Assembly: GCA_964504915.1 (NCBI GenBank)
Contig: CAZDFH010000006.1
Location: forward strand, 4,356 to 68,355
Length of the DNA stretch: 64,000 nt
From: an uncultured Candidatus Peribacteria bacterium
Lineage (GTDB): Bacteria; Patescibacteriota; Gracilibacteria; Absconditabacterales; Absconditicoccaceae
Reading direction: 5' to 3'
Positions 1,580 through 60,124 of the stretch are shown in pieces. The position numbers and the translations under genes were made by a program. How positions within the stretch are numbered: the first letter of the stretch is position 1; each line of letters begins with the position of its first letter. The notes below the pieces were generated by a model, which saw nothing but the letters and a program-made list of their open reading frames with translations, had not been told where the DNA came from and did no database searches.

Positions 1580-3538
1580 TTACATTCTTTCTACAAAAAT
1601 CATCCCTATGAGTTTCATGGCTTGTTGCAATGTCTCTAAGACTTTTTGTAGTAGGTCAATTCTTGTGATTTTTGTTGGTTCTTCATCTACTAATATTTTT
1701 GTATGAGCATAATAACTATTTACTAGTTGTGCTAGATCAAAACAATACTTCGCGATATAGTGTGGTGCTAAGTCATCTTTTGCTTTGAGAATGGTCTCGT
1801 CTAGTCCACTTATTTTTTTGATAAGTGCAAATTCATCGGCTTCTTGGAGTAAAGAATAATCGATTTTTGTCATATCCAACTTGCCTGCACTATCGATGAT
1901 ACTCTTCATTCTCGCTCAGGTATACAGGATATATGCTCAGGTCTCACCTTTCATATCCATTACCTCATCGAGATCAAAAACTATATCTTTAGTGATGTCT
2001 CCTCTGATCAAGAAAAATCTCAAAGCAGAAATTGCCATCGCTTCAGCGACCTTATCTAGTCGCACATCATCTTGTTCTGGATTTCTTTCTTTGGTCTCGA
2101 CATAGGCTTTCTTGTGAAGCATATCGAGCATATCATCTATTGTTACCGTTCGTCATTTTCTACTGGCAAAGGGTAATCTTTTTTCCAATTTTTCTTCATC
2201 GCTCAGATCGATCTTCATATTTAGCAATGTCTTTGGCGTCAAAAAAACGATACCATAGCCAAGTGGCAAATATTTTTTTTCTCCATGGACATGGCCGAGT
2301 AACTTGAGTGCTGAAGCCACAATTGTCTGAGGAGGAATCTGTCTATAATCTATGACAGTGATGGCTTCATCATATTTTCCAAAGCCATGTTTGTTTCATT
2401 TGCTTGTATCCGTACTTGTCGTATACATTCTGACGCCTCTGGGATCTTCTCGTGATTGTTCGTATCAGAAGTCCTTGTCCATGTAACCAAGCTTCCACAT
2501 CGCGAGAGCGATATCTTTGGCGACATAGGTGGCGAGACCATCTGACTTGATCATGATTTGATATTGTTTTTCTTCCTTTGCGTATTCTGGTAAACTAGAA
2601 AGATCAAGGATTCGACATCATTTCGCGTCGCCCTCATCGGCGTATTCCACGAATCATTTTTCCTTCAAGATATCCATCGCTGTGGCGAAAAATTTCAGAT
2701 GTAAGATATGTGTTTCCCAGGCAACGAGGTCGAAGTAGGCGCCCATCCTCCGGCAACTTTCCATTTGTCCATGTGTACAATCCTGGGTGTATTTCTGATG
2801 AAGTGTATTTATTTCTGGATCAGTATTTTCTTCTATCTTCAATAATGTTTCTGTCAATCTCTTTTGGAAAACAGCATCTTCTTCCAATTTTCTCATCTGC
2901 TCATAAATCTCTCCGCAGTAATGATCAAACTTTTTTTTTGTCGTCACGGGGATATCATAGTACATATGTCCGACAATATTGTAGCCGATATTCACTCCGC
3001 TATCATCTCCGTAATCACAGGTCGTAGGCTTATATCCAAGATGTTCATATATTCTCCTCATACTATCGCCGACACAGACATTTCTCGCTTGTCAGATATG
3101 AAGTGGCTTATTTGGATTAGCAGACATGTACTCTATGAGCAATTTGGTGCTTGTTGAGGGTTGAGAAGTTGAGAGTTGAGAGGTGAAAAAATCATTAATG
3201 AAATCAGTCTTTTTAATATGAGCGTTGAGAAATCAGCCGATGGCTTCAAATTTTTCAAAATGCTCTGACTTGAGCTTCTGAGCCATTTCTTGGGCTACTG
3301 CATTTGGTGATTTTTTCATCCATTTGGATAATGAAAAACAAGGAAATGCAAAATCTCCAGGAATATTTTCTGGTGGGGTCTCTATCATAAAGAAAAAAAT
3401 ATCGTCTATCGGCAACTTGGTCTCTTGGTTGAGAATCTCTGCGAAATACTGTTTGTATGTATCAAGTAGCATATCATCGTTTGCTAATATAAATCTTGTG
3501 GCTGAATATTTTTTTGTCTGGTTTGTTTTTTCTGTCAT
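1580..3538 (-). CDS. argS: Arginine--tRNA ligase
   Basis: Track ORFs 1580-1909, 1937-2131, 2654-3061 and 3233-3538 share one frame, and the gaps contain no TAA/TAG (checked). It has an Arg-tRNA-synthetase N-domain, the motif SANPNKPLHI[TGA=G]QARN (HIGH region), a DALR-type C-terminus ending in M, and a TAA stop. Confidence 0.9.
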
Positions 3539-6093: not shown

Positions 6094-6567
6094 ATGCTCG
6101 AAATAGAAAGAAAATTTCTCATTACCAAAATCCCTGAAAATATTTCCTCATTTCCTCATCATGAAATCTTACAATGATATTTTTTCAATGAATGAGAAAA
6201 ATTAGTGAGACTGAGAAAAAAAGGAAATCACTATTACCAGACGACGAAAAGCAGTGCAGGTTTGGTTAGACAACAAGAGGAGTCTGAGCTCTCTCCATCA
6301 GTCTTTGAAGAGGAGTGGAACAATGTCGAAGATCGACAATTACAAAAAACTCGTTACGAAATTCCCTGCGAGTGAAAGATTATTGAGTTAGATATCTACA
6401 AAGGAAAACTAGAATGATTGGTTCTCGCCGAGATAGAATTTACTTCTGAGCAAGAGGCGAATAATTTCACTGCGCCTGCTCGATTGGGTCAAGAATTGAC
6501 TGGCATGGCAGAAGCGGAAAATGCGTATTTGGCGAAATATGGAATACCGGACTCACTGCGTGAGTAG
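6094..6567 (+). CDS. CYTH-domain protein (CyaB/ThTPase family)
   Basis: It starts MLEIERKFLI (the EXEXK signature) and has four internal TGA. FTAPA[CGA]LGQELTG matches the conserved P.WLG.EVT segment if CGA is Trp. The stop is TAG. Confidence 0.8.
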
Positions 6568-6619
6568 TGTATAGTTTATAGTGTATAGTATATAGTATAT
6601 AGTATATAGTGTATAGTGT
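6565..6619. repeat. GTATAGT-word tandem repeat block beginning at the CYTH stop codon
   Basis: Sequence TAGTGTATAGTTTATAGTGTATAGTATATAGTATATAGTATATAGTGTATAGTG. The same 18-mer TAGTGTATAGTTTATAGT also overlaps the stop of the previous gene at 5652-5670. Confidence 0.85.
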
Positions 6620-6629
6620 TGGAGTTTTT

Positions 6630-7844
6630 TTAATTTTCAATTTTCAATTCTCAATTTTCAATCTTATCATATCCCAATTGTCCACAAGCGCCCTTGCCTT
6701 CTCTGCCCATACTTGCTCTGACGGTGACGGTAATTCATTCATTTTCCAAAATATCTTTAAATTTATACATCTGCGTTTTGCTACTTTCTTCGAGATCGAT
6801 CGCTGGATTCATATTGTATGCAATCAAGTTTACATGAGCCAATCTGCCTCTTAGTAACTTAGCTAATTCCTTGGCGAGCTCCGGCTTGTCAGTCACTCAC
6901 TTGATCATAATGTACTCGTAAAATATTCTATTATCGGTCGCTTTCACATAATCGTCGATCGTTTTCATCAGCTCATCGAGTGGATATTTTGCTGCAATCG
7001 GCATGAGTTGATTTCTCAATTCTTGATTTGGTGCATGCAATGAGATCGCTAATTTTACAGGAATATTGTCTTCAATTAATTTCTTAATTCATGGGATAAT
7101 CCCTGATGTTGATATTGTAATATGTCTTCTCGAGAGCGATAATCTGTCTTGTGGTAACATGAGTTCGATAGATTTTTTCATATTATCATAATTCAGCAAT
7201 GGCTCGCCCATTCACATAAAGACGACATTTCTCACACCATACAATGTGCCATCGTCTTTTTTTCCAAATTTATTCTTAATATAATTATTCGCATAGAGCA
7301 CTTGTCAGATAATTTCTTCTGCTGTGAGATTTCTCTTGAGACCTAATTTCCCCGTGACACAAAAGAGACAGTTCATGGGACATCATACCTGGCTAGATAT
7401 ACATAAGGTAATTCTATTTAGTTTTTTAGAGCCAGGATGTTGAAGGCTTTGCCTTGTTGAGGATTGAACGACTTCGTCGTGTTGAGAGTTGTCAGTATCA
7501 TCTTCATCAAAATCTTCAACCTCTTCCATCATATTTCCATTTTCATGTTGACGATTATCCCAGTGATAAAGTATAACCAGCTCGATCAGGTGTCCGTCCG
7601 TAGTTTGCAGTCAGATTTTGGTGCTGTCTTCTCCTTCTACGACATCCGTCACCTCAAAAGGAATAATACTGAATGCCTTCTCCAAGTCTTGCCTCATGTC
7701 CTTGGACAGCGTAGTCATCTCGGAGAACTCGATATTCTGATTTTTGTATATTTCAAAAAACACCTGCTTCACTCTAAAGGGTTGGAGCTTGTGTTCCTTA
7801 GCATATGATTGAAAAATATCTTCATTGAGAATAGATGGTTTCAT
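6630..7844 (-). CDS. rlmN: 23S rRNA/tRNA adenine-C2 methyltransferase, radical SAM
   Basis: The N-terminus matches RlmN (FRVKQVFFEIYK...EMTTLSKDMR). It contains CPMNCLFCVTG (CxxxCxxC) and MGMGEPLLNY, and ends ...ACGQLGY. There is an acidic low-complexity insertion (about 7440-7560). The stop is TAA at 6630-6632. Confidence 0.85.
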
Positions 7845-8490: not shown

Positions 8491-9729
8491 CTAGGCTGAC
8501 AACAGTGATTTTTTGTAAAATCGACACTGTTCGCCACCATTGTAAAATGGCGATTTTTTCCAATTGCCGGAAAGTTTTTTTTCTTCGAATTGTTCAAAGG
8601 AAGTAATGATCCCACCATGGAGCTTTGGATTTTTTTCGAATAGAGTAGCGAGTGTTTTATACAATCCCATGAGATCAATGATATTGTTTAGTCTGAGCCC
8701 ATATGGTGGATTGCTCACCATGGAGCCAATAAGTTCTGACTCATTGAGATACTCCTTAATATCTTTCACGGCGAATTGAATATATTTGTCTACTCATGCA
8801 TTCTTCGCATTTTCTTGAGCTATTGCTATCATCTCTGGATCGATGTCAGAAGCGATGATGGTATGTTCTTTATTTACAAAAGATGTCTGATGATTTCACT
8901 CTGATGGTGTCAGAAGATTTTTTTTGAGGTCTGCTAATATTGATTTGTCATATCGGTTTCGTGATTCAAATGCAAAATGTCTAAAGCTCCCGGGAGCGAT
9001 ATTCTTCGCAATCAGTGCCGCCTCTATCGCTATCGTTCCACTGCCACAGAAGACGTCATACAGTGGCTCACTAAATTTCCATCAAGACAATAAGACCAAT
9101 CATGCTGCTAGCGCTTCATTAATCGGCGCATCGCCGGTGGCTTTCTTGTATCATCTTTTGTGCAGAGATTCGCCTGTGGTATTTAATAAGATTGTACATT
9201 CATCATTGTCTATGTGGATGAAAATTTCCACTGGTTCCAACTTCGGATCTTCAAAGACCCTTTCTTCACTCTCAACTCTCAATGTGTCCACACTTCATTT
9301 CGTTGGCTTCGGAGCCACATGCAATGTGGCTTTACTTGCAGATTGGTGTGGGTCTCAATCCTCAACCTTCGCCAGAAGTTTTTTTACGATTGCTTTCTTA
9401 CAAATACTTTGTATCGTCGGTGTACTTGTGAGCTTGGATCTCTTGCTAGCAGCGGTGACGACGATGGGGTTGCCTTGGACGTACATCTTCCAGTCAATGC
9501 ATGAAACCAAGTCAAAGAGTCCATCAAAGTCAGAAACTTTTTTCTTCCCGAGCTCGAGAAAAAGTTTGTTTCAGACTCTACTTCGAAGGTTAATCTTCGC
9601 TATCGCAGTCTGGTCTCCCGTGAAACGGATCAGGGTTTGCTGATTACTTGTCACCTTGTATCCAGCGAGTTCTATTTCTTTTTTCAATACTGATTCCAGC
9701 CCTGCTGCGCAGGTGATAGCAAATTGCAT
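8491..9729 (-). CDS. THUMP-domain class I SAM-dependent methyltransferase (RlmL/YpsC-like)
   Basis: The frame is open over 8491-9729 (checked). Motifs are SLHKR[TGA]YK, APINEALAA, DVFCGSGTIAIEAA (SAM motif I) and SNPPYG (motif IV). It carries an extra segment of about 35 aa encoded by the repeat element at 9271-9367. Confidence 0.8.
9271..9367. repeat. Palindromic repeat element, copy A (inside the methyltransferase CDS, in frame)
   Basis: The architecture is CTCAACTCTCAA..CCACAC..GGCTTCGG-AGCCACATGCAATGTGGCT..GGTGTGGG..TCAATCCTCAACC, the same as copies at 19461-19555 and 60040-60124. Confidence 0.8.
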
Positions 9730-18001: not shown

Positions 18002-18095
18002 GGGTAAAATGGGTAAAATGAGATATGGGTAAAATGAGTTTGTCTGTTACCTATTACCTATTAACTATTAACTGTTATCTGTTACCTGTTATCTC
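18002..18095. repeat. Word-repeat block (GGGTAAAAT x3, then GTTACCT/TTAACTA/GTTATCT words)
   Basis: Read directly from the sequence. The block spans the junction of two minus-strand genes and overlaps the last codons and stop of the gene at 18075-18599. Confidence 0.85.
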
Positions 18096-18970: not shown

Positions 18971-19435
18971 TTACTTTTTTAGAAGTTTGGAATAGCTTTT
19001 TTCCGTAACAGTGTACTTATCTTCTCATTCCTTAGATACTAAATATACTTTCAGCTTTAATAATTTCCAGCCATATGTCATTTTCTTGATTTTATTTCTA
19101 AACGTATTTTCCCAATCAGCAGGTATAGCAATTGCATAGAAACGAGCCTTTTTCGGGTTATTTCCCTCTATATCCATGCGAGACAAAATTTGTCATAGTA
19201 GTGTATAAAATGCATTATTTTTTACTTGTTCAGGATGTTTTCAACTTCATTTAGCCTCAATAAACAATCTTTTTCTCCACTTGCTATGTCGTGCGATAAT
19301 ATCACAACCATGCTCTCATTTTTTCTTTTCTTCTTTCTCTATAGATCGATTTTTATCATTGATGAGGTATTTTCTTACGCTCTTTTCCACTTCATGCTCT
19401 GTTAGAGATGTTATTGTTCCTTTGATTTTTGGCAT
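18971..19435 (-). CDS. PD-(D/E)xK (restriction-endonuclease-fold) protein
   Basis: GCDIIA..(x14)..LFIEAKG fits the D...(D/E)xK core. It has several internal TGA, two CGA, and a TAA stop. Confidence 0.45.
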
Positions 19436-19460
19436 AAAGTCACTTAGAAATTAAAAACCT

Positions 19461-19555
19461 CTCAACTCTCAACATGCCCACATATTTTAATTGGCTACGG
19501 AGACGCATGCAATGCGTCTTTACAGGAACATTGGTGTGGGCTTCAACTCTCAACC
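19461..19555. repeat. Palindromic repeat element, copy B (intergenic)
   Basis: CTCAACTCTCAAC-ATGCCCACA..GGCTACGG-AGACGCATGCAATGCGTCT..TGGTGTGGGC-TTCAACTCTCAACC. Direct CTCAAC-word flanks surround nested inverted repeats. Confidence 0.85.
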
Positions 19556-19556
19556 T

Positions 19557-20867
19557 TTATTCTATAATTCTTTTCTGCAAATATTTCGCAGCGTAAAATA
19601 ATATCATTCATTCGAGACCAATATACAGTAAGACCAAGAAGAAAATTAGCTCCCCGGGGAGAGTAGTATTTCGTAATAAAATAATATTTACTACAAGTGC
19701 TGCGACGGTCGCTACCAATCGATAGGTGTATTCGATAGGCGTGAAAATTTTGGCCAGCAGAGGAATCTTGTGTGCATAGAAAATCAGTGTTGCACTGACA
19801 ATATTTCGTAAAATGGTCCGACTTACTATCGCTCCTACATCACCATTAAAGTAAGAGAATAAGCTGATGTAGATAGCAAAATTGATTACCAAGAAGACGA
19901 CAAGATTTTGGATGATGCTGTTGTATCAAATCTTTTTTAGTAATAAGACGTTCATGACAAAGATGATGATAATCAGCCGATAGAAGATATGTGAAATATT
20001 GGCAAAGCCAGCAATATTGACGACGTAATAATAGATCAATGCAATGATGAGAATAATGTTCATCAGCTCTAGAAGCTTCTTTGCCAAACTTGGCATATCA
20101 AAGACGAAGTGATATATCTTCTGCTGAAACTCTGAGGAGAAACGCTTCTTGGCTGTCGTAATTCTTTCCCCTGCCAATATTCTTCTGACCGAAATATTCG
20201 CTTTCTTGTCTTCGCTGAGTGGTTTATGTTTCAGCACATTGAATATCCAGAAATAGACTCCTGTGAGTAATAAACTATTTAGTGTCAGTGCTACATAGAA
20301 ATTATTTACTCGATGAATAATGATGAGAATGATCGTTCACAATGTCCGTATTCCTAGTTTATATCGCAGATAGTCTTCCATATTTTCTTTAAGTCCGACG
20401 ACGAAGATGAGGAAACCCATGACTCCACACTGCATGACTCGGAGCATACTAAACGTATTCCAAAATCAGATACCTCCTTCAAAGACCGTCATGACGACGA
20501 TAAGAAATATACAGGAGAGATAGTAGCCGAGTTGAAATACCATCTTACCATCTTCATATTTGATGACATACGAACCTAGTCGAAGGAATAAATTTATTCC
20601 AATCAGTCCTAGACATGTCGATACTAAGCTCATTCAGAAAAAATTAAAGATGCCGACAAATCCTGCGAGAATAATAATCCATGCGATGAAGAGACTATAT
20701 CTCTGAAGTAAGTCAGAAGATTTTATTTTGATATTTTGAGTCACTCCGTAATATGCGAACAATATAGCCAAGATGATGATAGGCAAAAATCCTACAAACC
20801 ATAGGCCGATAGCATAGAAGTAGACCATAAATCAGATAATTCAGATGCATAGTGATAATAATGCCAT
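19557..20867 (-). CDS. Polytopic membrane protein (436 aa), function unknown
   Basis: Track ORFs 19608-19892, 19926-20237 and 20634-20828 are in the same frame, and the gaps are free of TAA/TAG (checked). There are at least 10 hydrophobic segments. The track stop at 19608 is TGA, and the real TAA is at 19557. Confidence 0.6.
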
Positions 20868-22822: not shown

Positions 22823-23587
22823 ATGAAAAAATTTCTTCGGACACTGGTGATTCTCGTTTTACTTGCCTGCGCTTTTTTGTTCGTCAAGAAAAACACGACA
22901 CGATTTACCACAGCTCCTGTGACCGTAGTCACTACAGGAATACAGACTTCCGTGACTGAGTCAGATATATTTGTTACTCCAAATTTTTGTACACCAAGAC
23001 ACACAAGACAAGAATATCTTGCCGCTCAAGCTACTGATTGCCAACAAAATAGTTCTTGTGATCAATGGCAAAAAGACATATCAGGTATCGTCTTCGCTGA
23101 TCGATGGTGTGAGCAATCTGGCTTTACTATCAAAGTAATTGATCTTAGCAATGCGACAGGATATCAGGGAATTATCGATCAATCACTCCAAGAAATACAG
23201 ACATTAGGTACACTTCCACATGTGCTCTATCATAATCTTTTGGAGACAGAGATAGGTTTCGACGCTGGATTCCAAACTACAACCTTTGAACTTACGGGAC
23301 AAAGTGTGACCGGTGCTGACACGTCTAGAATGTTTATTAGCATGGAGTGAGAAGCATCTACACCAGTATTCAATCTTATCGTCAAAAAATGAAATTTCAT
23401 CATAGCGATCCAAAATATATTGGAAAAAAATATGGAGCTCGCTCCGATGTTGTCTAGCTTTCAAGCACAATCGCTTCCGACCGCACAAGCTGTCATAGCA
23501 TATTATCAAGCAAATATTCTTACTAACTCCACATTTCAAAATGTGGTAACAAATGCAGTGACTACAACATTAGCACGATTTAAATAA
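22823..23587 (+). CDS. Secreted protein, leader-sharing paralog family member
   Basis: Leader MKKFL[CGG]TLVILVLLACAFLFVKKNTT[CGA]F. The frame is open to TAA at 23585 (checked). Confidence 0.55.
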
Positions 23588-23607
23588 TTTTATTTTTTTC
23601 TCTGCTT

Positions 23608-24315
23608 ATGAAAAAGCTCCTCCGAAAATTAATTATTCTGATCGTCATTGTCTGTATTTACTTGCTGATCAAAAAAAATACTACTCGACTTGGTCTGCCT
23701 ACCCAGATAGGAACTATTCAGACATGAGTTGTTGCCACATGAATTGATTTGACCAACTGTGTCAGCTATTTCGATGGTTGTAATAATTGCTCAGTCAAAG
23801 ATGGGAAAGCAGATGCTTGTACATTGATGTATTGCGAGAAGCCAAGTGAACCAAAGTGTTTACAAGAAAAAACAGGGGAAAATATAGTATCAGCAATCGA
23901 AGATTTTTCATTCCAAATCCCTAAGTGACGAACAATAACCAAGACAACAAGTAATCCTTGTGCTGATTATGACTGTTCTATACCTGTATTACGTATTGCC
24001 ACAAATATAAAAGATAATTCATGATATGTAGTATATGCTTTACTAAAAATAGATGAGGTTAGTAAAAATAAAGTACAGGCTACCGACAAGATACTAATAA
24101 ATCAACCTGACAAAAAATTAGTCCAGTTGGAATGAGTATCATGATTTGGTTCCTTTATGCTTGATATCAAAGGGAAATATTATCTCATAGAAATCGCTGA
24201 TTTTACATCAGAGCAACCAAAGCCCGCTGGCTATAATGATCTTCGACAGCCCTATAATGTGACAGAAAAAGATATAAACAATCTCATTACAATCATAAAA
24301 AGTATATCTAAATAA
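23608..24315 (+). CDS. Secreted protein, leader-sharing paralog with a CxxC-rich module
   Basis: Leader MKKLL[CGA]KLIILIVIVCIYLLIKKNTT[CGA]LG, followed by DLTNCVSYFDGCNNCSVKDGKADACTLMYCEKPSEPKC. The frame was checked to TAA at 24313. Confidence 0.6.
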
Positions 24316-24337
24316 TTTTTAATCCTTCATATCTCTT

Positions 24338-24982
24338 ATGAAAAAACTTCTTCGGAAAATAATTATTCTGATCATCATTGTCTGTATATACTTGCTGATC
24401 AAAAAAAATACTACCCGACTTGGTATGCCTACACAGACAGGAAATGTCCAAACAGGAATCGTTTCTACGGGGATTGATTTGACGAACTGTGTCAGCTATT
24501 TCGACGGTTGTAACAATTGTTCCGTCAAAGATGGGAAAGTAGATGCTTGTACCAAGATGTATTGCGAGAAACCAAGTGAGCCAAAGTGTTCGCAATATGC
24601 TACTGGGAGTGAAACTACGGGATTAGTGAAAAACTCATCATGAGTTAATGATTTCTGATTCATTGAATGATCTCTAAGTTACCCTTCAGAATGAATCCCG
24701 TGAGATATGGAAGTGTGTGCAAGAAATATTTCAACTAAAGAAATTGTCTGTACAAAAGATCACATTGAAAATAATAAATATACATATCATATATGATACA
24801 AGATTAAAGTTCCTGTTGGAATATATAATGTCTATGCTAAGGAATGAAAACTCGAAGCATATTATTCAGAATTTGTAACTTGCTGATTGAAGGCGGAATG
24901 CCCATCGCATAATCTCATACCAGTTTCTGTTTCTGAAAATATGACAGTATCTAATATTGACCCTAGTGATTGGTACAAATAA
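24338..24982 (+). CDS. Secreted protein, near-identical N-terminal half to 23608-24315
   Basis: The first 265 nt or so are roughly 85-90% identical to 23608-23870 by eye, and then the sequences diverge. The frame was checked to TAA at 24980. Confidence 0.6.
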
Positions 24983-25024
24983 AATATTAATATTTATGTT
25001 TTCTTTTATTCTTTTTCTTTCTTC

Positions 25025-25738
25025 ATGAAAAAGCTTCTTCGAATCATCTGAATTCTTATTGTCCTCATCGCAGCATTTTTCGTAGTGAAGGCACAGACTA
25101 CACGATTTGGTTCGACGCAGAAAGCTACAACAACCTTAGCAAATCCAGCTTCGGTGTATTGTCAGCAACAAAGTGGAACACTAGAAATCGTCACTGATTT
25201 GAGTGGATGACAGTCAGGGATCTGTCATTTAACTGATGGTACGACATGTGATGAATGGGCATATTTTAGAGGAGAATGTCCTACGACGGGGATTTCTAGT
25301 GGAGAAAATAGTTGATTTCTAACATATACAGATAATGTGTATGGGATTCAATTACAATATCCAGATACATGGGAAATTTATCAATGACAACCACCATTTG
25401 AATTACCACTTCTTACATGGATGAGGTTTCAAGATAAGACTTGAGATGGCATAATTAGGGTAGCGATTAGCATTTATAGTTGAACATATTCCTCATTTGT
25501 AGATTTTCAAAGTTGGTATAAAGCTTCTATAAAAGACACAATGACATCAGCTCCAATACAAATAAAAATAGCTGGGTTGGATGCAATAGAGACAATGCAG
25601 ACTGATGGTATCGACTCTGTAAGTCCTTATATTTATATTTCAAAAGGCAACAATACAGTTGTATTCACCACAACTAACGGATCAGAAGGAAAAAAACTAC
25701 TATTGGACACACTAGATTCATTAAAATTCACTGATTAG
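25025..25738 (+). CDS. Secreted protein, paralog leader plus a DUF333-like (putative hemolysin) module
   Basis: Leader MKKLL[CGA]II[G]ILIV.., followed by ANPASVYCQQQSGTLEI...GICHLTDGTTCDEWAYFRGEC. Confidence 0.55.
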
Positions 25739-36860: not shown

Positions 36861-36892
36861 AGTGAAGAGTGAAAAGTTAAAAGTGAAAAGTG
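36861..36892. repeat. GTGAAAAG-word repeat block
   Basis: AGTGAAGAGTGAAAAGTTAAAAGTGAAAAGTG, directly after the stop at 36855. A TTAACTATTAG/TTTTTAGTTATTCAC block follows at 36924-36954. Confidence 0.75.
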
Positions 36893-40596: not shown

Positions 40597-40660
40597 AGAC
40601 GTAAGTATCAAGACGTAAGTATCAAGACAGAAGTCTTATGTCTTACGTCTCATGTCTTAT
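40597..40660. repeat. AGACGTAAGTATCA x2 plus inverted copies
   Basis: A tandem 14-mer at 40597-40624 is followed by AGACAGAAGTCT and TGTCTTACGTCT. The block overlaps the stop codon of the kinase-like gene. Confidence 0.8.
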
Positions 40661-41214
40661 TTCTCGATTTGTTTCATAATCTTATCGACCTGTTGGCGGA
40701 GCTCGTCGATAGTTCCATTATTTTCAATGACATAGTCAGCTAGATCTATACATGCTTGCAGATTCTGTTTATTTGGATCGTCGGAATTCATTTCTCTTTC
40801 TTCATTCTCTATGAATGTCGTATAGGGAACATGATCAGTTTCGCTTCCTCTTGCTCATATCCTTTCATATCTTATCCCTGGATCAGCTTCTACGGCGAAG
40901 AGATAAAATGGTCATTTCTCTTTAAATGTTTTGATTTCACCTACAGTTCTTACGCTTTCGATAACTGTGTTTTTCCCTGTCTCTTCTGCTTTGGTATATA
41001 AGTCACTCGCTATAAATCCAGGGCCATATTTTTCGCGAAGCTCGTTACCCATGATGACCATACTATCTCTGTTGTTTGGCATGCCTTTCTGAAGCATCTT
41101 TTCTATCAGATATGCTCTGACGGAGAAATGCTGGAATCCATATTTTTCTACTAAATATTCTACGACTGTCCCTTTCCCTGCGCCGAGGGTTCAAGTAATT
41201 CCAATAATAAGCAT
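40657..41214 (-). CDS. P-loop nucleoside/nucleotide kinase family protein
   Basis: MLIIGIT[G]TLGAGKGT Walker A, 185 aa. It looks like a dephospho-CoA or dNMP kinase; the substrate is unknown. Confidence 0.6.
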
Positions 41215-41325: not shown

Positions 41326-41371
41326 GTAGGGGCGTTTACTAAACGCCCGGGCGAATATTATTCGCCCCTAC
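41326..41371 (+). promoter_or_regulatory. GC-rich leader hairpin set with alternative pairings, followed by a T-rich tract
   Basis: GTAGGGGCG-TTTACTAAA-CGCCC|GGGCG-AATATTATT-CGCCCCTAC. The segment GGGGCG can pair with either CGCCC segment. TTTTAAATTTTTT follows at 41377-41390, and the ATG is at 41401. Confidence 0.4.
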
Positions 41372-41400: not shown

Positions 41401-41907
41401 ATGCAGACCACGGTTCACGCACAACGCAAACTTCACGTGACGCAGACAGGCCGGACGTTGTGATTTGTCAGTATTCTTTTTTGTTTGCCTTTATTTATTT
41501 CCGGTCCACAACTTTTAATTTGAAGTATAGTTAACTTATTATTGATTGCATCAGTACGAAAATTGTCTCGATCCAAAGCTTGGCCCTTGGCGTTCATTCC
41601 AAGTATCGCGGCAGTTCTTCATGGTGTCATCTTCTGACCATTTACGATATTCCTTGTCTATATGATGCCAGTAATTTGGCTAGGAAATCTAGCCTTAATG
41701 TATATCGTTAGTCGTGTCTCTCAGAAATGGTTGGGAATTTTGGCATGATGAATCATTAAAGCATGACTCTTGTTTCTCATCGCATTCATATTAGTACAAA
41801 ATAGTTTCTTGCCTACGATATTTCTCAAAGCAATGGGAATCTTTCAATTAGCTACAGCATTAATCGGTGGATATGTGTTGTTTGGAATGCGTACATTAGC
41901 AAAATAA
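41401..41907 (+). CDS. Small polytopic membrane protein (168 aa), possible transporter component
   Basis: ATG at 41401, and the frame is open to TAA at 41905. It has 5 to 6 hydrophobic segments and the motif SGPQLLI[G]SIVN. The start is uncertain; TTG at 41542 is an alternative. Confidence 0.45.
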
Positions 41908-44230: not shown

Positions 44231-44315
44231 CGGAAGGCACAGGATTCGAACCTGCGGTACCTTGCAGTACGCACCGTTTCCAACGGTGTGCTTTAGACCA
44301 CTCAGCCAACCTTCC
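44231..44315 (-). tRNA. tRNA-Ser (anticodon GGA), class II with long variable arm
   Basis: Reverse complement GGAAGGTTGGCTGAGTGGTCTAAAGCACACCGTTGGAAACGGTGCGTACTGCAAGGTACCGCAGGTTCGAATCCTGTGCCTTCCG. The anticodon stem is CACCG/CGGTG with loop TTGGAAA, and the T-arm is CAGGTTCGAATCCTG. No CCA is encoded. Confidence 0.9.
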
Positions 44316-44326
44316 TTATGGGTATT

Positions 44327-44461
44327 GGAACGATAGATTTTGGAACGATAGATTTTGGAACGATAGATTTTGGAACGATAGGACTTAGAACGATAGGTTT
44401 TGGAACGATAGATTTTGGAACGATAGATTTTGGAACGATAGATTTTGGAACGATAGATTAT
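44327..44461. repeat. Tandem repeat, 15-bp unit GGAACGATAGATTTT x9
   Basis: Nine head-to-tail units, two of them variant (GGAACGATAGGACTT and AGAACGATAGGTTTT). The array lies upstream of the tRNA on its strand and touches the stop of the next gene. Confidence 0.95.
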
Positions 44462-44823
44462 GGTTTTGCGTGTGTTTTTTTGTATCTTATTAATGATGAT
44501 AGCATTTTCAAAATAATAGTAATTTCTTCGTCTAATGTATCTGACTTATTTTTTGTGATAAATCATTGTCTTTGTGCAATCAATAAATGTGTTTGAACTT
44601 CTGCTGCCGATCATTTAGCTATATAGAGAAAATTTATATTCTCTTTATTTGTATTTCTTTGATCTCATTCTGCTATATTTGCAGCGATAGAATTAGATGC
44701 TCTCTTAATTTGGTCTATAAGTGCAAACTCCATTTTTGGAAAAGTTTTGGTAATTTCATACATTGCATCCACAAAGTTCATTGCTCTCTTTCGTACTTCT
44801 AGTTTTTGGTAACTTTTGTCCAT
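44458..44823 (-). CDS. Four-helix-bundle protein (23S rRNA intervening-sequence protein family; Avd-like fold)
   Basis: QIKRASNSIAANIAE[G]... FLYIAK[G]SAAEVQTHL matches the Qi.rAa.Si..NIAEG ... iA.GS..E..t.l signature. Confidence 0.75.
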
Positions 44824-47715: not shown

Positions 47716-50700
47716 TTATACCACAATATTTAAAATTTTTCCTTTCACGTAAATTACTTTTTTTGGCTCACCTGTGATTCGATTAGCAATCTTCTCATCG
47801 GCTTTTGCTGCTGTCATTGCGTCTCCTTCAGTGGCTTCTAGATCTAGAGAAATCGTTCCTCTGACCTTGCCATTTACCTGGACGGCTATCGTGATCGTGT
47901 CGGCGATCAATAACTTTTCATCATATGTTGGCCATGTAGCTTTGGTAAAAATGGAGTACTCGTTTCAGAGTTGTTCCCAAAGTTCTTCCGCCAAATGTGG
48001 TGCAAACGGAGATGTCAAAATAACCAACGTTTCAAAGGTCTTACGTGATATGGTTCAGCAATCTGTGAGGTGATTCGTCAAGATCATGAGCTGAGAAATT
48101 GCTGTGTTGAATTTAAACTCATCTATATTCTCAGTGATTTTTTTAATCGATTGATTTAGAAGAATGATAGTCTGAAGGTCTTCAGGTCATCAAGTCTTCA
48201 GGTCTATTAAGTCTTCAGGTCCATCAAGTCATCAAGTCTCCTGTCATTCGACTTTATGGACTTTAGACTTTACGGACTTTACAGACTCGTTGGTTCGGAC
48301 TTTAAGACTGAGGTTCGCAACCTTGTCCAAGAACTTTTTCGATCCGGAAATTCATGCAGTATTCCATGCGATAGCTTGTTCAAACGGGCCCATAAACATT
48401 TCATAAGTTCTCAAAGTATCAGCTCAGAACTGGCTTACGATATCGTCTGGATTGACGACATTTCATCGTCTCTTGGACATTTTTCTACCATCTTCACCCA
48501 TGATGAGTCAGACGTAATGATATTCTTGGAATGGTTCATCATGAGAAATCGCTCCGATATCAAAAAGAAATTTCTGCCAAAATCTACCATAGATCATATG
48601 TCTGGTGACGTGTTCTGCTCCACCGATATAGATATCGACATTGCCTCGATATTTTTCTTTGTCCTTGCCGACAAGTGCTTTATCATTGGTCGGATCCATA
48701 TATCTGAGCCGGTATCGTGAACTGCCTGCCCATCCTGGCATCGTATTGGTTTCGCGTTTTGCTTTCGTTCCATCTGGTAACGTTACATTGACCCGATCAG
48801 TAATATTTGCCAGTGGTCACTCTTCTGTTCCCGTGGGTGCATAATTTTCTACATCAGGCAAGAGTAAAGGAAGATCTTTCTCATCCAAAGGAATAATTTT
48901 TGCTGACTCTTGTTGTCTGTTTGGATTTGTTATGACTGCGTTTAGTATGTCATGGTCTTCCTTGTTTTGGAAATGTCTCTTCTTGTCTAGGATGATAGTC
49001 TCTCGTTGTTTGGTTACGACGTCTTGCGTATCTACAGAAATATATGGATCGTCTTGTGATACAAACAATATTTTTTCTTGAGCATTCTTATCTATTTTTT
49101 TGAAATTCAATTTGAGATCAATAATTTTGCTCAAGGCGACAATATCGGAATCTTGAAATTCTGGATTTTCACTTACATCATTTACTATCTTCTTGGCTGT
49201 GGTAACTGGTGCGACGAGAATCAGTTTCCCAATCTTCTGCTCAGCTTGCTCTACGAGCTTAAGCGCAAATTTCCCTCATAGGCTGTGGCCTATCACGATA
49301 TCATTTTCTCCTAATTTGTTGAAGTATGGTAATAGAAATTCCATCGTCTCATCGTAATTTGGACTGTCAGGATTTGGTAATGTTTCATTAAATACTTCAT
49401 ATCATTTTGCTGTCAATTCTTTCGTGATTCGTGGAAATCGATTCCCTTCTTTCCTTCATTCGAAGCCATGAATTAATAATACTTTTTTTCATCATTTTTG
49501 GGTATTTACTATTTCAAATTCTCGTCCAACTAGACCATTCTTCTCGATCTTCTCTCTATATCAAGGTTTGAAATCTCGACCTTGTTGAAAATCTTCGAAG
49601 CTTTTTACGGATGCGAAAGCTTGCTTGTTGGTGTAGATTTTTTCGATAATTTTTTTGTCCGTTGACCGAAGATCTTCCAAGTTTTTCCGTGTATGCGTGG
49701 TTTTTATTTTGACCGAAATAGTAGTTCAGGTTTCTTTGTTTTCAAAATGTAGTATGTCTCCAACTTTTACGTCACCAAAATATCTATCTGGCTCTTCGGG
49801 GTTGAGAGCTCTGGTTTCGAGCGTCTTCGTTCCATCAACGATGGACTGCCACGTTGTCTGATCATAAAAATGTATGGTAAGTTTTGGTTTGTCTTCCGTC
49901 TCAGTTCGTAATATAGGGAAAGGTTCCCCTCGATATCTTTGTCTACTAAATACTCGATCTTGCATGCGGTAAGAAATTATTTTTTCTGCTCGTCATTTCT
50001 TAATGTAATATTCTGAAATTTTTTGTGTGGCCATGTGGATATCCATGCCATCTAGAAAATCTGAATGTATCATCTTTCACTCTTCTTCTTGGACTTGTTC
50101 AGCTTTTGTGATGGGGGAAGTATCTCAGTTAGATCCAATAACAACTCTTATCACTGGGATATCAAAGGTTTGAGCAAATTCAAAGTCACGTATATCGTGT
50201 CCAGGCACACCAACAACCGCTCAAGTACCAAATCATCCTAGGACGAAATCTGAAATCCAAATAGGGATTTCTTTTCCATCTATTAGTCTGTGGTCGGCAT
50301 AAAATCAAGTAAATGCTCATGTTTTGACATGTCATTCTGCTATTCTTTGGAGCTCGGTTTTTTGCTTGGTTTCAAAAACATATTTTTCTATATCAATATA
50401 TGTTTTTTTATCCACCGCAATTTCCTTATTTAATATTTTTGTCACAAAAGGATGTTCTGGTGCCAAGACGATAAATGTTGCACCAAAATTTGTGTCTGGT
50501 CTTGTAGTAAAACATACGACTTCTTCATGAGTTCATATAATTGGATAATGAATATTAATTCCTTCTTTTTTCCCAATCCAATTTCTTTCTAAGTCTTTCA
50601 TCGATTCTTCTCGATTAAGTTTGTCCAATCACTGCAATAATCTCTCTGCATATTTTGTAATCCTCAATACTCGTTGTTTCATTGGCTTTTGTTCTACTTC

Positions 50701-51351
50701 TGAGCCACAGCGTTCACACTTTCCATCATCGAGATCTTCATTTGCCAATCCTGTCATACAATGAGGACATCGATTTATCGGCTTATAATCTACGAACGCC
50801 AAACGTTGCGAATTAATAAATTGCTCTTTTGTTAATCAGTCTGGAACTTTCAACTTTCAACTTTCAACTTTCAACTCGAATTTTTTTACAGGCTCAGCCT
50901 TATGTGTTTCATCGTCATAATAGTGATTAAATAACTGTAAAAAAATTCGTTGTGTTCGTTTGAAGTATTCTGGATCGGCTGTGTTTACTGATCTGCTTCG
51001 ATCATATGACATGCCAAACATTTTGAGTTGCTGTATAAACTTTTCTACGTTTTGCTTAGCGACAGTTTGTGGCTTCATTTTATTATCGATAGCATATTGT
51101 TCAGTTCATAGACCAAATGTATCAAATCCCATAGGATGAAGCACGTTAAATCATTCCAACATCTTCTTCCTCGCAAGCGTATCACTTGCGATATATCATT
51201 TGGGATGTCAGACGTGAAGTGCGGCTCCGCTAGGATAGGGAAACATATCCAAAACGTAAAATTTTGGTTTGCTCGTATTTTCTTTGACTTTGTAGAGGTC
51301 AGTTTCTTTTCGCTTTTTCTGTCGCTTTTCTCAGATTTCTTTTAAGTTCAT
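47716..51351 (-). CDS. leuS: Leucine--tRNA ligase with a large in-frame ASCH-like plus serine-hydrolase insertion
   Basis: The frame was verified free of TAA/TAG over all 3636 nt. LeuRS motifs are [10 protein letters not shown][G]HPKGY, IN[CGA]CPHC, TTRPDT (CP1 editing), SRQRY[CGA]GEP, YIGGAEH and KMSK. The insertion spans roughly 48900-49905 (see findings). Confidence 0.88.
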
Positions 51352-52832: not shown

Positions 52833-54956
52833 TTGGCTAAAAGAAGAAAAAGAAGTAAAAGCAAAAATATTGTCCTCACCAAATTCAGATTGTGAATTGC
52901 ATTGACGGTGTTGGGAGGATTATTCTTTTTTTCACTCTCATTTGCAGGCAATTCACCTGTGCTTGCTTTCCTCAAAAGTTATGCAAGCTTGCCATTCTGA
53001 GAGATTGGACTCTATATCTTTTTCGCCCTATGCGTATTTGTGGGTATAGCTATCATGGCTAGATGATATCTCATGAAACTCTTGGTTCGTCAATTCATCG
53101 TTATGATGTTTGTACTGTCTGCGATCCTCAATTTCCCTATTATAGATTGAGATGTCGCTAAATATGAAAAATATGGTGGCTATATTTCATGGCCGATTAT
53201 CTATTTCTTGGATTTGATTTTTGGTCATAATAATATAGCAATCAAAGCATTGATTATCATTTTGCTTATTTTGGTCATTGTGCGAATTTTGTATTCGTTT
53301 AATTTTAGCTTGCCAAGAATTAGTTTGCAAAGTGAAGATAGACCACAAAAGAAAAAAGACGCAAGACACAAGACACAAGACACAAGTGATGACGAGGAAG
53401 AAGAGGAAAAACCAGAATTTGGTCAGCCAGTTTCCCGTTCGTTGATCAAGAGTTTGATTAAGCAAAAGTTTGAAGAGAAGGTTACCCAGAAAGAGAGAAA
53501 GGTCAAACCAATGATTAACTTTTCTGGTGAGAAGCCAACTTTCAATATCTCTATGATGGAGTCGTGAGCTGATCAGACAGTCACTATCGATGAGACATTT
53601 CTTATGGAAAAAGCCAAAGCACTGCAAAATAAATTGATGGAATTTAATGTGCCGATCATGATAGAATGATTTGATATCGGTCCATCTATCGTGCAGATTA
53701 GGATCAAACCAGATGAGGGAATTAGATTGTCCACGATAGAAAGTTTGACCAATGATATTTCATTATCTTTGAAATCAAAATCGGTTCGTATCGTTGCACC
53801 AATTCCTGGTACTGATTGTGTCGGTATCCAGTTGCCAAATCCCAAGCCCGTTATGGTCAAGCTTGGCGACATTTTGAATTCCAACGAGTTCGTCCAAGAT
53901 ATGAAAAAGTCTGATAATAATTTATCGCTCGGTAAGGCGATCGATGGATCTATTATGATCAAGACCTTGGAATCTATGCCTCACTTACTTGTGGCTGGTG
54001 CGACGGGTTCTGGTAAATCGGTCTGAGTAAACGACTTCATCTTGTCCCTCATGTATCAAAATACACCTTCTGAACTAAAATTTCTCATGGTGGATCCGAA
54101 GCAGGTAGAATTGGAATTGTACGCAGGACTACCTTACTTACTTGCTCCTATCGTATATGAGCCAGAGAAAGCATTGAAACTGCTCAAATGGACAGAACAT
54201 GAAATGGAAAGAAGATATGGTATCCTCAAAGAAAACAGAGTCAAAAATATCGATGAGTTTAATAGCAAAAAACCACCAGAAAAAATGTTTCGTATCATCT
54301 TCGTCATCGATGAGCTGGCAAGTATGATGCTGAGTAAATCAAAACGTGATGTGGAAAATTGTATCACTCATATCTCAGCGAAAGCTCGTGCTGTCGGTAT
54401 CCACTTAATTATTGCGACGCAGAGACCATCGGTAGATGTCATCACTGGTCTGATCAAGGCAAATATTCCTACAAGAATTGCCTTTGGTACTGTATCAGAA
54501 ATTGATAGTAGAACTATCTTGGGTAGAAAATGAGCAGAGACATTACTGGGAAAATGAGATATGCTCTATATGGATCCATCTACGAAATCACCAATCAGAA
54601 TTCAAGCGCCATTCGTTTCTACAGAAGAGATAGAGAAAGTAGCTCTTGCACTTAAGAATAAATATATGGACGGATTGACAGAAGAAGATATCTACAATCC
54701 AGAAATTGTTAGCTTACTAGAAAATAGTAAATTTGAAGCTGGAGATTATGTCTTCTCGTGATGAGGTAATGATGATGAAGATTTAGTAGAACAAGCTATC
54801 CAAGTGGTTTCTCAGACGAGAAAAGCATCGGCTACTTTATTACAACGTAAGCTAAATATCTGATTTGCTCGTGCGGCGAGAGTCATGGATATGATGGAAG
54901 AGAGATGATTGATATGACCTCAAGATGGCGCGAAGCCGAGAGATATCTTTATGTAG
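52833..54956 (+). CDS. ftsK: DNA translocase FtsK/SpoIIIE
   Basis: It has N-terminal TM segments, Walker A GATGSGKSV[TGA], DELA (Walker B region), IIATQRPSVDVITG, and a C-terminal winged-helix ASATLLQRKLNI[G]FARAARVMDMMEE. No ATG start is available, so TTG at 52833 (or 52824) is assumed. Confidence 0.85.
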
Positions 54957-59675: not shown

Positions 59676-59987
59676 TTAATTCGAGTCCATCTTATATTTC
59701 TTAATGTAATTATCTAATTCAGTCACTTCATCATCATCAGCTCTTTTGTTTCGATGCTTTTTGCCACATATTTCACAGACAAATAATATTTTCATTCCAC
59801 CATTTTTGATTTCATAAGCGGTGGGATACATCTTGCCATGGCATTCTGTTGCTCTATCGCCAGGAATATTCCCATCGACATGGAGCGATACAAAACAATG
59901 AGGGCAATGATTTCTACAGGTTTTCGAAGCTTGGCTTATTTCTTGCTTGCAATTGATACAGATAAATGATTCGTTTATTTTCTTCAT
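59676..59987 (-). CDS. RNHCP-domain zinc-ribbon protein
   Basis: CINCKQ...C-RNHCP-HCF...CEICGKKH. I prefer the ATG at 59987 (MKKINESF); the track ORF start at 60059 lies inside repeat copy C. Confidence 0.6.
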   Translation of the reverse strand: MKKINESFICINCKQEISQASKTCRNHCPHCFVSLHVDGNIPGDRATECHGKMYPTAYEIKNGGMKILFVCEICGKKHRNKRADDDEVTELDNYIKKYKMDSN

Positions 59988-60039
59988 AATTTTCTTATGG
60001 CAGATAAACATCTTTATATCAAATTTACTATTTTCAATC

Positions 60040-60124
60040 TTCAACATACACACCATCATATTGATTAGCTACGGTAGACGCATGCAATGCGTCTCTACAT
60101 CGCTTGTGGTGTGGATTTTAAACC
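60040..60124. repeat. Palindromic repeat element, copy C
   Basis: TTCAACATACACACC..TAGCTACGG-TAGACGCATGCAATGCGTCTCTAC..TGTGGTGTGG..TTAAACC. It aligns with copy B along its length. Confidence 0.75.

What the first reader, a model, noticed from the sequence alone, without database searches (positions are those of the whole stretch)
9271..9367. Repeat element inserted in-frame inside a THUMP methyltransferase (RPE-like behaviour)
Copy A of the palindromic element lies inside the coding frame of the 8491-9729 methyltransferase, on the opposite strand relative to the gene. It introduces no TAA/TAG; I checked every triplet.

It encodes an extra ..VED[G]DPHQSASKATLHVAPKPTK[G]SVDTLRVESEE.. segment. 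This lies between the THUMP domain and the methylase core, where homologs normally have only a short linker. In-frame insertion of palindromic elements into ORFs is the hallmark of Rickettsia palindromic elements. I am not aware of this being described for SR1/Gracilibacteria.
Basis: partly seen in the sequence, partly recalled or inferred. Interest (0 to 1): 0.65.

Follow-up and report, generated by a model that had tools for sequence, protein, structure and literature searches.

The report
In-frame palindromic repeat in SR1 methyltransferase
A roughly 100-base palindromic repeat of the REP type sits in-frame inside an RNA methyltransferase gene of an SR1 bacterium and adds a floppy surface loop of about 35-40 amino acids, a behaviour already known from Rickettsia and other bacteria but apparently not yet reported for this lineage.

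Summary
Under genetic code 25 (TGA = Gly), window 8491-9729 (-) is an intact 412-aa THUMP/UPF0020 RNA methyltransferase gene. Positions 9269-9369 are one copy of a ~100-nt composite repeat: TTGAGAG-type heptamers, an outer stem CCCACAC/GTGTGG, a central GTAR-tagged 8-9 bp hairpin, then heptamers again. There are two more copies in the window (19459-19557 and ~60030-60115) and at least four in other SR1 contigs.

The closest ortholog (82% identical), the modal 371-aa orthologs and three PDB homologs all lack the segment. AlphaFold models it as a disordered loop (pLDDT below 50) that splits the THUMP domain.

The central hairpin fits the published definition of GTAG-tagged REPs, which are already known to occur inside genes. 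The same 26-mer recurs in several other phyla.

The site is a recurrent indel and recombination hotspot. Other SR1 orthologs carry the same core, solo heptamer arrays, or a different CGTC-tagged palindrome at the same codon position.

This family is not widespread in ORFs, and no RAYT transposase was found in the DNA available. Verdict: a real feature, and a new member of a known kind (intragenic REP/RPE-like insertion). Period-7 arrays inside several housekeeping genes are a more unusual side observation.

The parts
8491..9729 (-). Host gene: a 412-aa class I SAM-dependent RNA methyltransferase (RlmL_1st ferredoxin-like domain + THUMP + UPF0020 methylase), read with code 25.
   Evidence: Pfam PF01170 E = 8e-42, PF22020 E = 6e-13, PF02926 E = 8e-5. 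PDB 3ldu E = 1.5e-65. Orthologs are named candidate division SR1.
9269..9369 (-). Copy A of the composite repeat, in-frame. It encodes residues ~121-154 (K)VEDGDPHQSASKATLHVAPKPTKGSVDTLRVES.
   Evidence: It lies within the pLDDT < 50 loop 123-155.
9352..9369 (-). 5' heptamer pair on the gene strand: AAGGTTGAGGATTGAGA.
   Evidence: The same motif flanks copies B, L045, L048 and L009.
9288..9351 (-). Palindromic core: the outer stem CCCACAC...GTGTGG encloses the tagged hairpin.
   Evidence: Folds. Conserved in 8 copies.
9313..9335 (-). Central REP-type hairpin: GTAA tag + AGCCACAT-TGC-ATGTGGCT (8 bp stem, 3 nt loop).
   Evidence: The stem variant GCCAC/GTGGC differs from GACGC/GCGTC by two compensatory pair changes.
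9269..9282 (-). 3' heptamer pair on the gene strand: TTGAGAGTTGAGAG, encoding LRVES.
19459..19557 (-). Copy B, intergenic. It starts at the TAA stop (19557-19559) of gene 19557-20867(-) and ends 23 nt before the ATG of gene 18971-19435(-).
60030..60115 (-). Copy C: degenerate outer stem, GTAGAGACGCATTGCATGCGTCT hairpin (60076-60098) and right-hand heptamers. It overlaps the predicted N-terminus (MMVCMLKIENS) of ORF 59676-60059(-).

Best explanation
Window 9269-9369 is a non-autonomous, REP-type palindromic repeat that occupies a permissive surface loop of the THUMP domain of an RlmL-like RNA methyltransferase in a code-25 SR1 (Absconditabacteria) genome.

Anatomy on the gene strand:
1. Two TTGAGAG-like heptamers.
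2. A 7-bp outer stem arm, CCCACAC.
3. A GTAR tag followed by an 8-9 bp hairpin, AGMCRCAT-TGC-ATGYGKCT.
4. CCGWAGCYAA.
5. The outer stem arm GTGTGG(G)CAT.
6. Two more heptamers.

Shown:
- It is a dispersed repeat.
- It is in-frame and sense-oriented.
- The nearest ortholog and the solved homologs lack it.
- The model shows a disordered loop flanked by confident secondary structure.
- The hairpin is kept by compensatory changes even though that changes the encoded amino acids (SKATLHVAP versus CRDALHASP). So what is preserved is the nucleic-acid structure, not the peptide.
- The consensus core is open in only one sense frame, and all three in-ORF copies use it.

Inferred:
- The element is translated as a tolerated, functionally near-neutral loop of about 34 aa.
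- The core behaves like other GTAG REPs: a hairpin in single-stranded DNA or RNA that normally sits just 3' of stop codons. It entered this loop once or a few times.
- It then moved between SR1 lineages with flanking gene sequence by homologous recombination, because the gene is mosaic around the site.
- Deletion between the flanking direct heptamer repeats would leave the solo heptamer arrays seen in other orthologs.
- Reassignment of TGA to Gly makes such insertions easier to tolerate: the insert holds two TGA codons.
For: - Code 25 ORF and peptide.
- Repeat family.
- Absence in PDB homologs.
- Absence in modal orthologs and the closest ortholog.
- Disordered loop (pLDDT < 50 for residues 123-155).
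- Nested fold and compensatory stem variants.
- GTAG REP definition and intragenic precedent: PMC3733652.
- Five tagged hairpins in the window against 0.25 expected.
- Position at stop codons of co-oriented genes.
- Frame analysis.
- Mosaic identity around the site.
- Solo heptamers or other palindromes at the same codon site in orthologs.
Against: - No Y1/RAYT transposase was found in the window or in ~330 kb of fetched loci (Pfam lists), so the mobilising activity is unknown.
- Copies A and B carry GTAA rather than GTAG.
- Only a handful of copies are documented, so high copy number is not shown.
- No other protein carries the element peptide, so ORF colonisation by this family is not general.
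- Translation of the insert is not demonstrated.
- The NJ tree is weakly resolved outside three 100% clades, so the number of independent insertions is uncertain.
- The structure was modelled with Trp instead of Gly at the 8 TGA codons.
Confidence: 0.8

Rival explanations
1. The insert is retained because it does something. Either it works as an mRNA hairpin that modulates translation, decay or co-translational folding between the two halves of the THUMP domain, or it works as an added peptide that alters RNA substrate binding by THUMP.
For: - The hairpin is preserved with compensatory changes in three diverged lineages at the same site.
- All copies are sense-oriented to nearby genes.
- THUMP is the RNA-binding module, and the insert is within it.
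- Several other RNA-handling enzymes (RlmN, ArgRS, a LeuRS-like ORF) also carry repeat-derived inserts.
Against: - The closest ortholog and most SR1 orthologs do without it.
- Unrelated sequences occupy the same site in other lineages.
- The peptide is not conserved and is modelled as disordered.
- Hairpin conservation is equally explained by recent copying from other genomic copies.
Confidence: 0.1
2. The segment is an ancestral, fast-evolving linker of the SR1 enzyme, not an insertion. Its similarity to the other copies would reflect those copies deriving from the gene, or chance.
For: - P0003 and P0005 carry a homologous segment at the same position.
- Insert carriers share the downstream motif FEDPKLEPVE, which resembles the outgroup linkers.
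Against: - The DNA is a nested palindrome shared with intergenic copies at 78% identity.
- The hairpin 26-mer occurs in many phyla.
- The closest relative, the outgroups and the PDB homologs lack it.
- Carriers are scattered across well-supported clades that also hold non-carriers.
Confidence: 0.03
3. The element is not translated. It would be removed or bypassed at the RNA or translation level, or the gene is a recently disrupted pseudogene that happens to remain open.
For: - Copy A is stop-free in 5 of 6 frames, so openness alone is weak evidence of translation.
- A -24 kcal/mol hairpin lies in the message.
Against: - There is no Rfam intron or ribozyme match.
- 100 nt is too short for known self-splicing introns (established knowledge).
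- The length is a multiple of three in three lineages, which all use the same frame.
- The downstream catalytic motifs are intact (NPPY).
- Intragenic REPs and RPEs are taken to be translated elsewhere (PMC3733652).
Confidence: 0.05

Closest known systems
Intragenic GTAG- and CGTC-tagged REPs (Di Nocera, De Gregorio and Rocco 2013, PMC3733652)
   Same: - A short hairpin with an unpaired GTAG-type tag.
- Subfamilies with complementary stem changes.
- Usual position just downstream of co-oriented ORFs.
- Occasional in-frame location inside genes, encoding 20-30 aa, including genes for RNA-handling enzymes.
- REPs nested in outer palindromes (T. roseum GTAG-23, A. variabilis GTAG-15).
   Different: - The host is a code-25 SR1 bacterium.
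- The tag is GTAA in half of the copies.
- The unit is a fixed composite with an outer stem and flanking direct heptamers.
- No RAYT was found.
- The hairpin sequence was not found in that paper's text or supplements.
Rickettsia palindromic elements (RPE-1 and relatives; Ogata et al. 2000, from memory; RPE-4/6 equated with CGTC REPs in PMC3733652)
   Same: A palindromic repeat of about 100 nt inserted in-frame in a housekeeping gene. It adds a surface segment without destroying the fold, and it is present in or absent from orthologs of related strains.
   Different: - There is no sequence relationship.
- Here only one gene is known to carry this family, whereas RPEs decorate many ORFs.
- Different bacterial phylum and genetic code.
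REPIN/RAYT systems (Bertels and Rainey 2011; Nunvar 2010; Ton-Hoang 2012; from memory, plus PMC3479197 and PMC8266576 listed)
   Same: A GTAG tag at the foot of a hairpin is the recognition architecture of RAYT Y1 transposases. A second GTAG family in the window forms a head-to-head dimer (41326-41371).
   Different: - The element studied is a single REP inside a larger palindrome, not a REP doublet.
- No RAYT gene is documented.
- Copy number appears low.
MITEs inserted in-frame in bacterial genes (review PMC10969869, listed)
   Same: A small non-autonomous repeat with inverted ends that can be read through as protein.
   Different: The flanks are direct heptamer repeats of the same sequence in every copy, not target-site duplications. 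The conserved part is a central tagged hairpin rather than terminal inverted repeats.

Membership tests
GTAG-tagged REP superfamily (PMC3733652) | Small palindrome: stem 5-13 bp, short loop (2-4 nt typical) | tested here: met
   AGMCRCAT / TGC / ATGYGKCT gives an 8 bp stem (9 bp with the tag G in GTAG copies) and a 3 nt loop.
GTAG-tagged REP superfamily (PMC3733652) | Unpaired terminal GTAG motif (degenerate forms GYAG, GYRG, GTRG, GTMG tolerated) | tested here: inconclusive
   GTAG is present in copy C, L001, L003, L009, L045 and all 38 hits in other phyla. Copies A, B, L047 and L048 have GTAA, a form the paper does not list.
GTAG-tagged REP superfamily (PMC3733652) | Subfamilies with alternative complementary stem residues | tested here: met
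   GACGC/GCGTC versus GCCAC/GTGGC: two pairs are changed on both sides. Both variants also occur outside SR1, e.g. L029.
GTAG-tagged REP superfamily (PMC3733652) | Repeated many times in the genome | not testable with these tools
   Three copies in 64 kb, plus a third locus in the same metagenome sample (L045). The whole genome is not available.
GTAG-tagged REP superfamily (PMC3733652) | Preferential location just downstream of ORFs between co-directional or convergent genes | tested here: met
   Copies B, L045 and L009 start at the TAA stop of a co-oriented gene. L048 is 36 nt away.
GTAG-tagged REP superfamily (PMC3733652) | Association with a RAYT (Y1/HUH transposase) gene, i.e. a REPtron | tested here: not met
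   phmmer with E. coli RayT against 2,148 ORFs of the window and all loci gave no hit. No HUH+Y candidate in window ORFs. No PF01797 in the precomputed Pfam lists. Only a fraction of each genome was seen, and the paper notes that REPtrons can be missing.
Rickettsia palindromic elements (RPE) | In-frame insertion of one repeat family into many different ORFs | tested here: not met
   A profile of the element peptide found only 4 word-sharing candidates in 5.8 billion proteins, none at E <= 10. All in-ORF copies are in the same gene.
Rickettsia palindromic elements (RPE) | Insert forms a surface segment compatible with the host fold | tested here: met
   AlphaFold2 model: residues 123-155 are coil at pLDDT < 50, between blocks at pLDDT about 87-96. 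The PDB homologs have a 3-18 residue turn there.
Rickettsia palindromic elements (RPE) | Sequence membership in RPE-1 to RPE-n of Rickettsia | not tested
   No RPE consensus was at hand. The different phylum and composition make membership implausible.
MITE | Terminal inverted repeats plus target-site duplication of variable sequence | tested here: not met
   The flanks are direct TTGAGAG-type heptamers with the same sequence at every locus, so they are not locus-specific duplications.
THUMP-containing class I SAM-dependent RNA methyltransferase (RlmL/UPF0020 type), host gene | N-terminal ferredoxin-like domain + THUMP + UPF0020 Rossmann domain with NPPY motif | tested here: met
   Pfam PF22020, PF02926, PF01170. 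PDB 3ldu, 3k0b, 3ldg, 3v8v. N340-P341-P342-Y343 invariant.

The most novel reading that the evidence does not exclude
The in-frame copy may be the visible tip of an undescribed repeat system in SR1 bacteria.
- A GTAG hairpin whose 26-mer is identical across several phyla is embedded in lineage-specific composite elements.
- Period-7 tandem arrays occupy the same codon site with a different unit sequence in each genome (ArgRS: CTCTCAA, GACATGA, AACATGC, ATTGAAA), and form inverted arrays in RlmN.

This would point to an active, possibly enzyme-driven process. Candidates are a trans-acting HUH/Y1 nuclease or a repair or slippage pathway with a 7-nt register. Such a process would repeatedly write and rewrite short cassettes into surface loops of RNA-modification enzymes and tRNA synthetases, helped by the reduced stop-codon set of code 25.
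Probability: 0.15. Interest if true: 0.75.

Novelty: new member of a known kind. Interest (0 to 1): 0.5.

Why it matters
- It extends in-frame REP/RPE-type decoration of housekeeping proteins to a candidate-phylum lineage with a reassigned stop codon. There, read-through of inserted DNA is intrinsically more likely.
- It gives a clean natural experiment: orthologs 82-91% identical with no insert, with this insert, or with an unrelated palindrome at the same codon position. That can show how surface loops tolerate and exchange repeat-derived cassettes.
- For annotation, these elements create spurious N-terminal extensions (ORF 59676-60059) and length heterogeneity in core genes of SR1 metagenome-assembled genomes.
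- The identical GTAG hairpin in several phyla, and the period-7 arrays inside genes, are leads of wider interest for repeat biology.

Tried and rejected
- Rfam at permissive E-value over 9100-9550 and at gathering score over the whole window: only a chance snoRNA hit and one tRNA.
- Full-text search for the hairpin sequence: 0 papers.
- Search for SR1/Gracilibacteria palindromic repeats: nothing relevant.
- RAYT probe with E. coli RayT: no hit. An HUH motif screen gave only one non-transposase candidate.
- All-against-all comparison of ORFs next to the hairpin in 17 unrelated genomes: no family shared by three or more genomes, so no linked gene.
- Peptide-profile search for other decorated proteins. 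The second found nothing.
I used P0001, which has Trp at the TGA codons.
- Three of the eight metagenome pattern hits (L043, L046, L049; GC 55-65%, no hairpin) were rejected as chance.
- The MAFFT alignment A4 misplaces the outer arm of L001, so I did not use it for pair counting. Two of my scripts stopped on regex misses and cover only 4 of 8 copies.
- The idea that FEDPKLEP is part of the element was rejected, because copy B has no such flank.
- The published GTAG-11 family of Geobacter was considered as a match for the Geomonas hits. Its listed peptide does not look like a reading of this hairpin.
- No tRNA-Gly(UCA) lies in the window to confirm code 25 directly.

Full report
**Observation**

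Under table 11 the minus strand of 8491-9729 is cut into fragments by TGA. Under table 25 it is one 412-aa ORF. The TGA codons align with conserved glycines of solved homologs (LHKRGY, LAAGL), so TGA = Gly. The best-named orthologs are from candidate division SR1.

Pfam finds RlmL_1st (residues 2-55), THUMP (66-123, truncated at profile position 62 of 84) and UPF0020 (192-383). The closest structures are 3ldu, 3k0b, 3ldg and E. coli RlmL.

**The repeat**

Copy A (9269-9369) matches 19459-19557 at 78% over ~100 nt (E = 6e-18). Read on the gene strand, the unit has six parts:
1. Two TTGAGAG-like heptamers.
2. CCCACAC.
3. A GTAR tag and the hairpin AGMCRCAT-TGC-ATGYGKCT.
4. CCGWAGCYAA.
5. GTGTGG(G)CAT.
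6. Two more heptamers.

A metagenome scan recovered contigs identical to A and B (L044, L050). It also found a third locus in the same sample (L045) and two loci in another sample (L047, L048). A genome scan added L009. A tagged-hairpin scan then found a third window copy, C, at ~60030-60115, and a head-to-head dimer of a second GTAG family at 41326-41371. That is 5 tagged hairpins against 0.25 expected.

The copies that were folded (A, B, L001, L003) fold as an outer stem around the inner hairpin. As RNA, the strand antisense to the genes is a few kcal/mol more stable because of G-U pairs.

The two stem variants (GACGC/GCGTC and GCCAC/GTGGC) differ by two double-sided compensatory changes.

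**Is it an insertion?**

- Three PDB homologs break their alignment at query residues ~125 and ~160, and have 3-18 residues where the query has 34-48.
- Of 120 listed homologs the modal length is 371 aa.
- In the ortholog alignment the common form is NGKEWQLPEDHSKE. The closest relative, P0002 (82% identical outside the site), has that short form.
- AlphaFold2 (35-sequence alignment, mean pLDDT 79.9) models residues 123-155 as coil at pLDDT < 50. They lie between helix 103-119 and strand 167-174, both confident.

So the insert splits the THUMP domain at a turn. It is not in the interdomain linker.

**The same site in other SR1 genomes**

DNA of eight orthologs shows the following:
- L001 (P0003): the same core plus the right-hand heptamers.
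- L003 (P0005): the core only, with a left junction identical to that of L001.
- L055 (P0007): only (GTTGAAC)x4.
- L054 (P0017): only (TTGARAA)x4.
- L053 (P0014): TTGAAAA heptamers around a small unrelated hairpin.
- L051 and L052 (P0008, P0016): a different palindrome with CGTC/TGTC tags at its outer ends. Its arms start ATTGCGA/TCGCAAT, which resembles the CGTC REP dimers that PMC3733652 equates with RPE-4/6. In L052 a second copy follows the gene's stop codon.
- L004 (P0002): nothing.

In an NJ tree built without the site, three clades have 100% bootstrap support: {P0001, P0002, P0005}, {P0003, P0007, P0008, P0009, P0021, P0024, P0033} and {P0047, P0006}. Each mixes carriers and non-carriers, or carriers of different inserts. 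P0003 and P0008 are 91% identical outside the site yet hold different elements.

Sliding-window DNA identity shows a mosaic gene:
- The window is about 90% identical to L004 over most of the gene. That drops to 59-70% just upstream of the site and 47-62% just downstream.
- In that region the window is instead closest to L001 (80-83%, against a gene mean of 70%).
- L001 and L051 switch from 63-81% upstream of the site to 85-96% downstream.

I infer that presence or absence of the insert is spread, at least in part, by homologous recombination of a tract that includes the site. Deletion between the flanking direct heptamers could produce the solo arrays. Neither step is proven.

**What the core is**

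The 22-mer AGMCRCATTGCATGYGKCTCCG gave 38 loci in the species-representative genome collection, where about 1 is expected. Every hit is preceded by GTAG. The genomes include Geomonas (12 loci), Mangrovibacterium (9 loci), Chitinophagaceae, Emticicia, Cryomorpha, Saprospiraceae, Phycisphaerae, Magasanikbacteria, Elusimicrobiota and Ignavibacteria. Some hits are in inverted pairs or inside lineage-specific larger repeats.

This fits the definition of GTAG-tagged REPs in Di Nocera et al. 2013 (PMC3733652):
- 20-40 bp palindromes with an unpaired GTAG-type tag.
- 5-13 bp stems and short loops.
- Subfamilies with complementary stem changes.
- Location mostly just 3' of ORFs.
- Sometimes nested in outer palindromes.
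- Sometimes inside genes, encoding 20-30 aa.
- Often, but not always, next to RAYT genes.

The positions here agree. Copies B, L045 and L009 begin at the TAA stop of a co-oriented gene, and L048 is 36 nt from one. The tag strand is the sense strand wherever a neighbouring gene is clear.

I found no RAYT in the window or the fetched loci, and no protein family recurring next to the hairpin in unrelated genomes. Rfam has no family for it.

**Coding consequences**

The consensus core is open in only one sense frame, because GTAG/GTAA and GCTAA close the other two. All three in-ORF copies use that frame. Copy A is open in 5 of 6 frames, where about 0.25 per frame is expected.

The compensatory stem changes turn SKATLHVAP into CRDALHASP. 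The nucleic-acid structure is therefore kept at the expense of the peptide.

A profile of the peptide found only four word-sharing proteins in 5.8 billion, and none was significant. This family does not decorate many ORFs.

**Wider pattern**

- TTGARVN doublets occur 10 times in the window against 0.46 in shuffles.
- TRF finds 19 period-7 arrays against 2.2 expected. Periods 8, 9, 14 and 15 are also enriched. Fourteen of the 19 period-7 arrays lie in the 12% of the window that is non-coding.
- Arrays also lie in-frame in ArgRS, RlmN (two sites), a LeuRS-like ORF and ORF 53055-54956.
- At the ArgRS site, four genomes carry about four heptamer units of four different sequences. At the RlmN site, three genomes carry inverted heptamer arrays and three have a short form.

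**Verdict**

This is an intragenic REP-type insertion, RPE-like in effect, in a lineage where no description turned up in the literature search. That makes it a new member of a known kind. The mobilising mechanism is unknown. The cross-phylum identity of the hairpin and the period-7 arrays inside genes are the most unusual leads.

Noticed in passing
window 60030-60115 (-): Third copy (C) of the same element. It has the hairpin GTAGAGACGCATTGCATGCGTCT at 60076-60098, a degenerate outer stem and right-hand heptamers. It supplies the predicted N-terminus MMVCMLKIENS of ORF 59676-60059, which is probably a start-codon miscall or an element-derived extension.
   Followed up: partly
window 41326-41371 (+): Head-to-head dimer of a second GTAG REP family (GTAGGGGCGTTTACTAAACGCCC / GGGCGAATATTATTCGCCCCTAC), between the divergent genes 40657-41214(-) and 41401-41907(+).
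   Followed up: partly
L005-L042 (genome-contig hits): The 26-mer GTAGAGACGCATTGCATGCGTCTCCG is identical in genomes of several phyla (Bacteroidota, Desulfobacterota, Planctomycetota, Patescibacteria, Elusimicrobiota, Ignavibacteria). It is often multi-copy and embedded in lineage-specific larger repeats. No linked gene and no publication were found.
   Followed up: partly
window 3153-3186 (ArgRS ORF 1580-3538, -); L001, L004, L055 at the same codon site: An in-frame array of about four heptamers. Its unit sequence differs in each genome at the same site: CTCTCAA, GACATGA, AACATGC, ATTGAAA.
   Followed up: partly
window ~7400-7540 and 6627-6662 (RlmN ORF 6630-7844, -); L003, L004, L053: RlmN has a hypervariable in-frame site after VILYH. 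It is short in L001, L052 and L055. L003 has (GTAGAAA)x11 ... (TTCTACC)x8 inverted arrays, and L004 and L053 have similar inverted arrays. In the window, a C-terminal TTGAAAA x4 array encodes ..DKIENGELKIEN*.
   Followed up: partly
window 50845-50876 (ORF 47716-51351, -) and 53345-53386 (ORF 53055-54956, +): Further in-frame period-7 arrays: (TTGAAAG)x4.6 next to the inverted repeat 50860-50891/50935-50966 in a LeuRS-like protein, and (ACACAAG)x6.
   Followed up: no
whole window: Short tandem arrays of period 7, 8, 9, 14 and 15 are 5 to 50 times more frequent than in Markov-1 shuffles and fill much of the intergenic space (e.g. 6565-6619, 18044-18094, 36861-36892, 40597-40664).
   Followed up: partly
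L051 862-950; L052 1501-1590 and 2357-2450: A different palindromic element with CGTC/TGTC tags (GTCATTGCGA...TCGCAATGAC; peptide RHCERSEAIQ..IASS) is in-frame at the same methyltransferase site in two other SR1 lineages. In L052 it occurs again just after the gene's stop codon.
   Followed up: partly
window 8866-8968 (methyltransferase residues ~254-287): A window-specific divergent stretch (ESRNRYDKSILADLKKNLLTPSEGNHQTSFVN), 7 aa longer than in all eight compared orthologs, with low pLDDT at 273-285. Its origin was not examined.
   Followed up: no
window 44325-44463: A 15-nt tandem repeat (TTGGAACGATAGATT) x9.3, directly next to the only tRNA gene in the window (tRNA-Ser GGA, 44231-44315, -).
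   Followed up: no
window 22823-25738 (+): Four tandem paralogous genes (214-254 aa, N-termini MKK(F/L)LR...KKNTTR). Genes 2 and 3 share a 261-nt repeat at 86% identity.
   Followed up: no
window 57109-57764 (ORF 56412-58475, +): In-gene repeats with a 189-nt period (about four copies of a 69-nt core) in a DnaJ-like protein.
   Followed up: no
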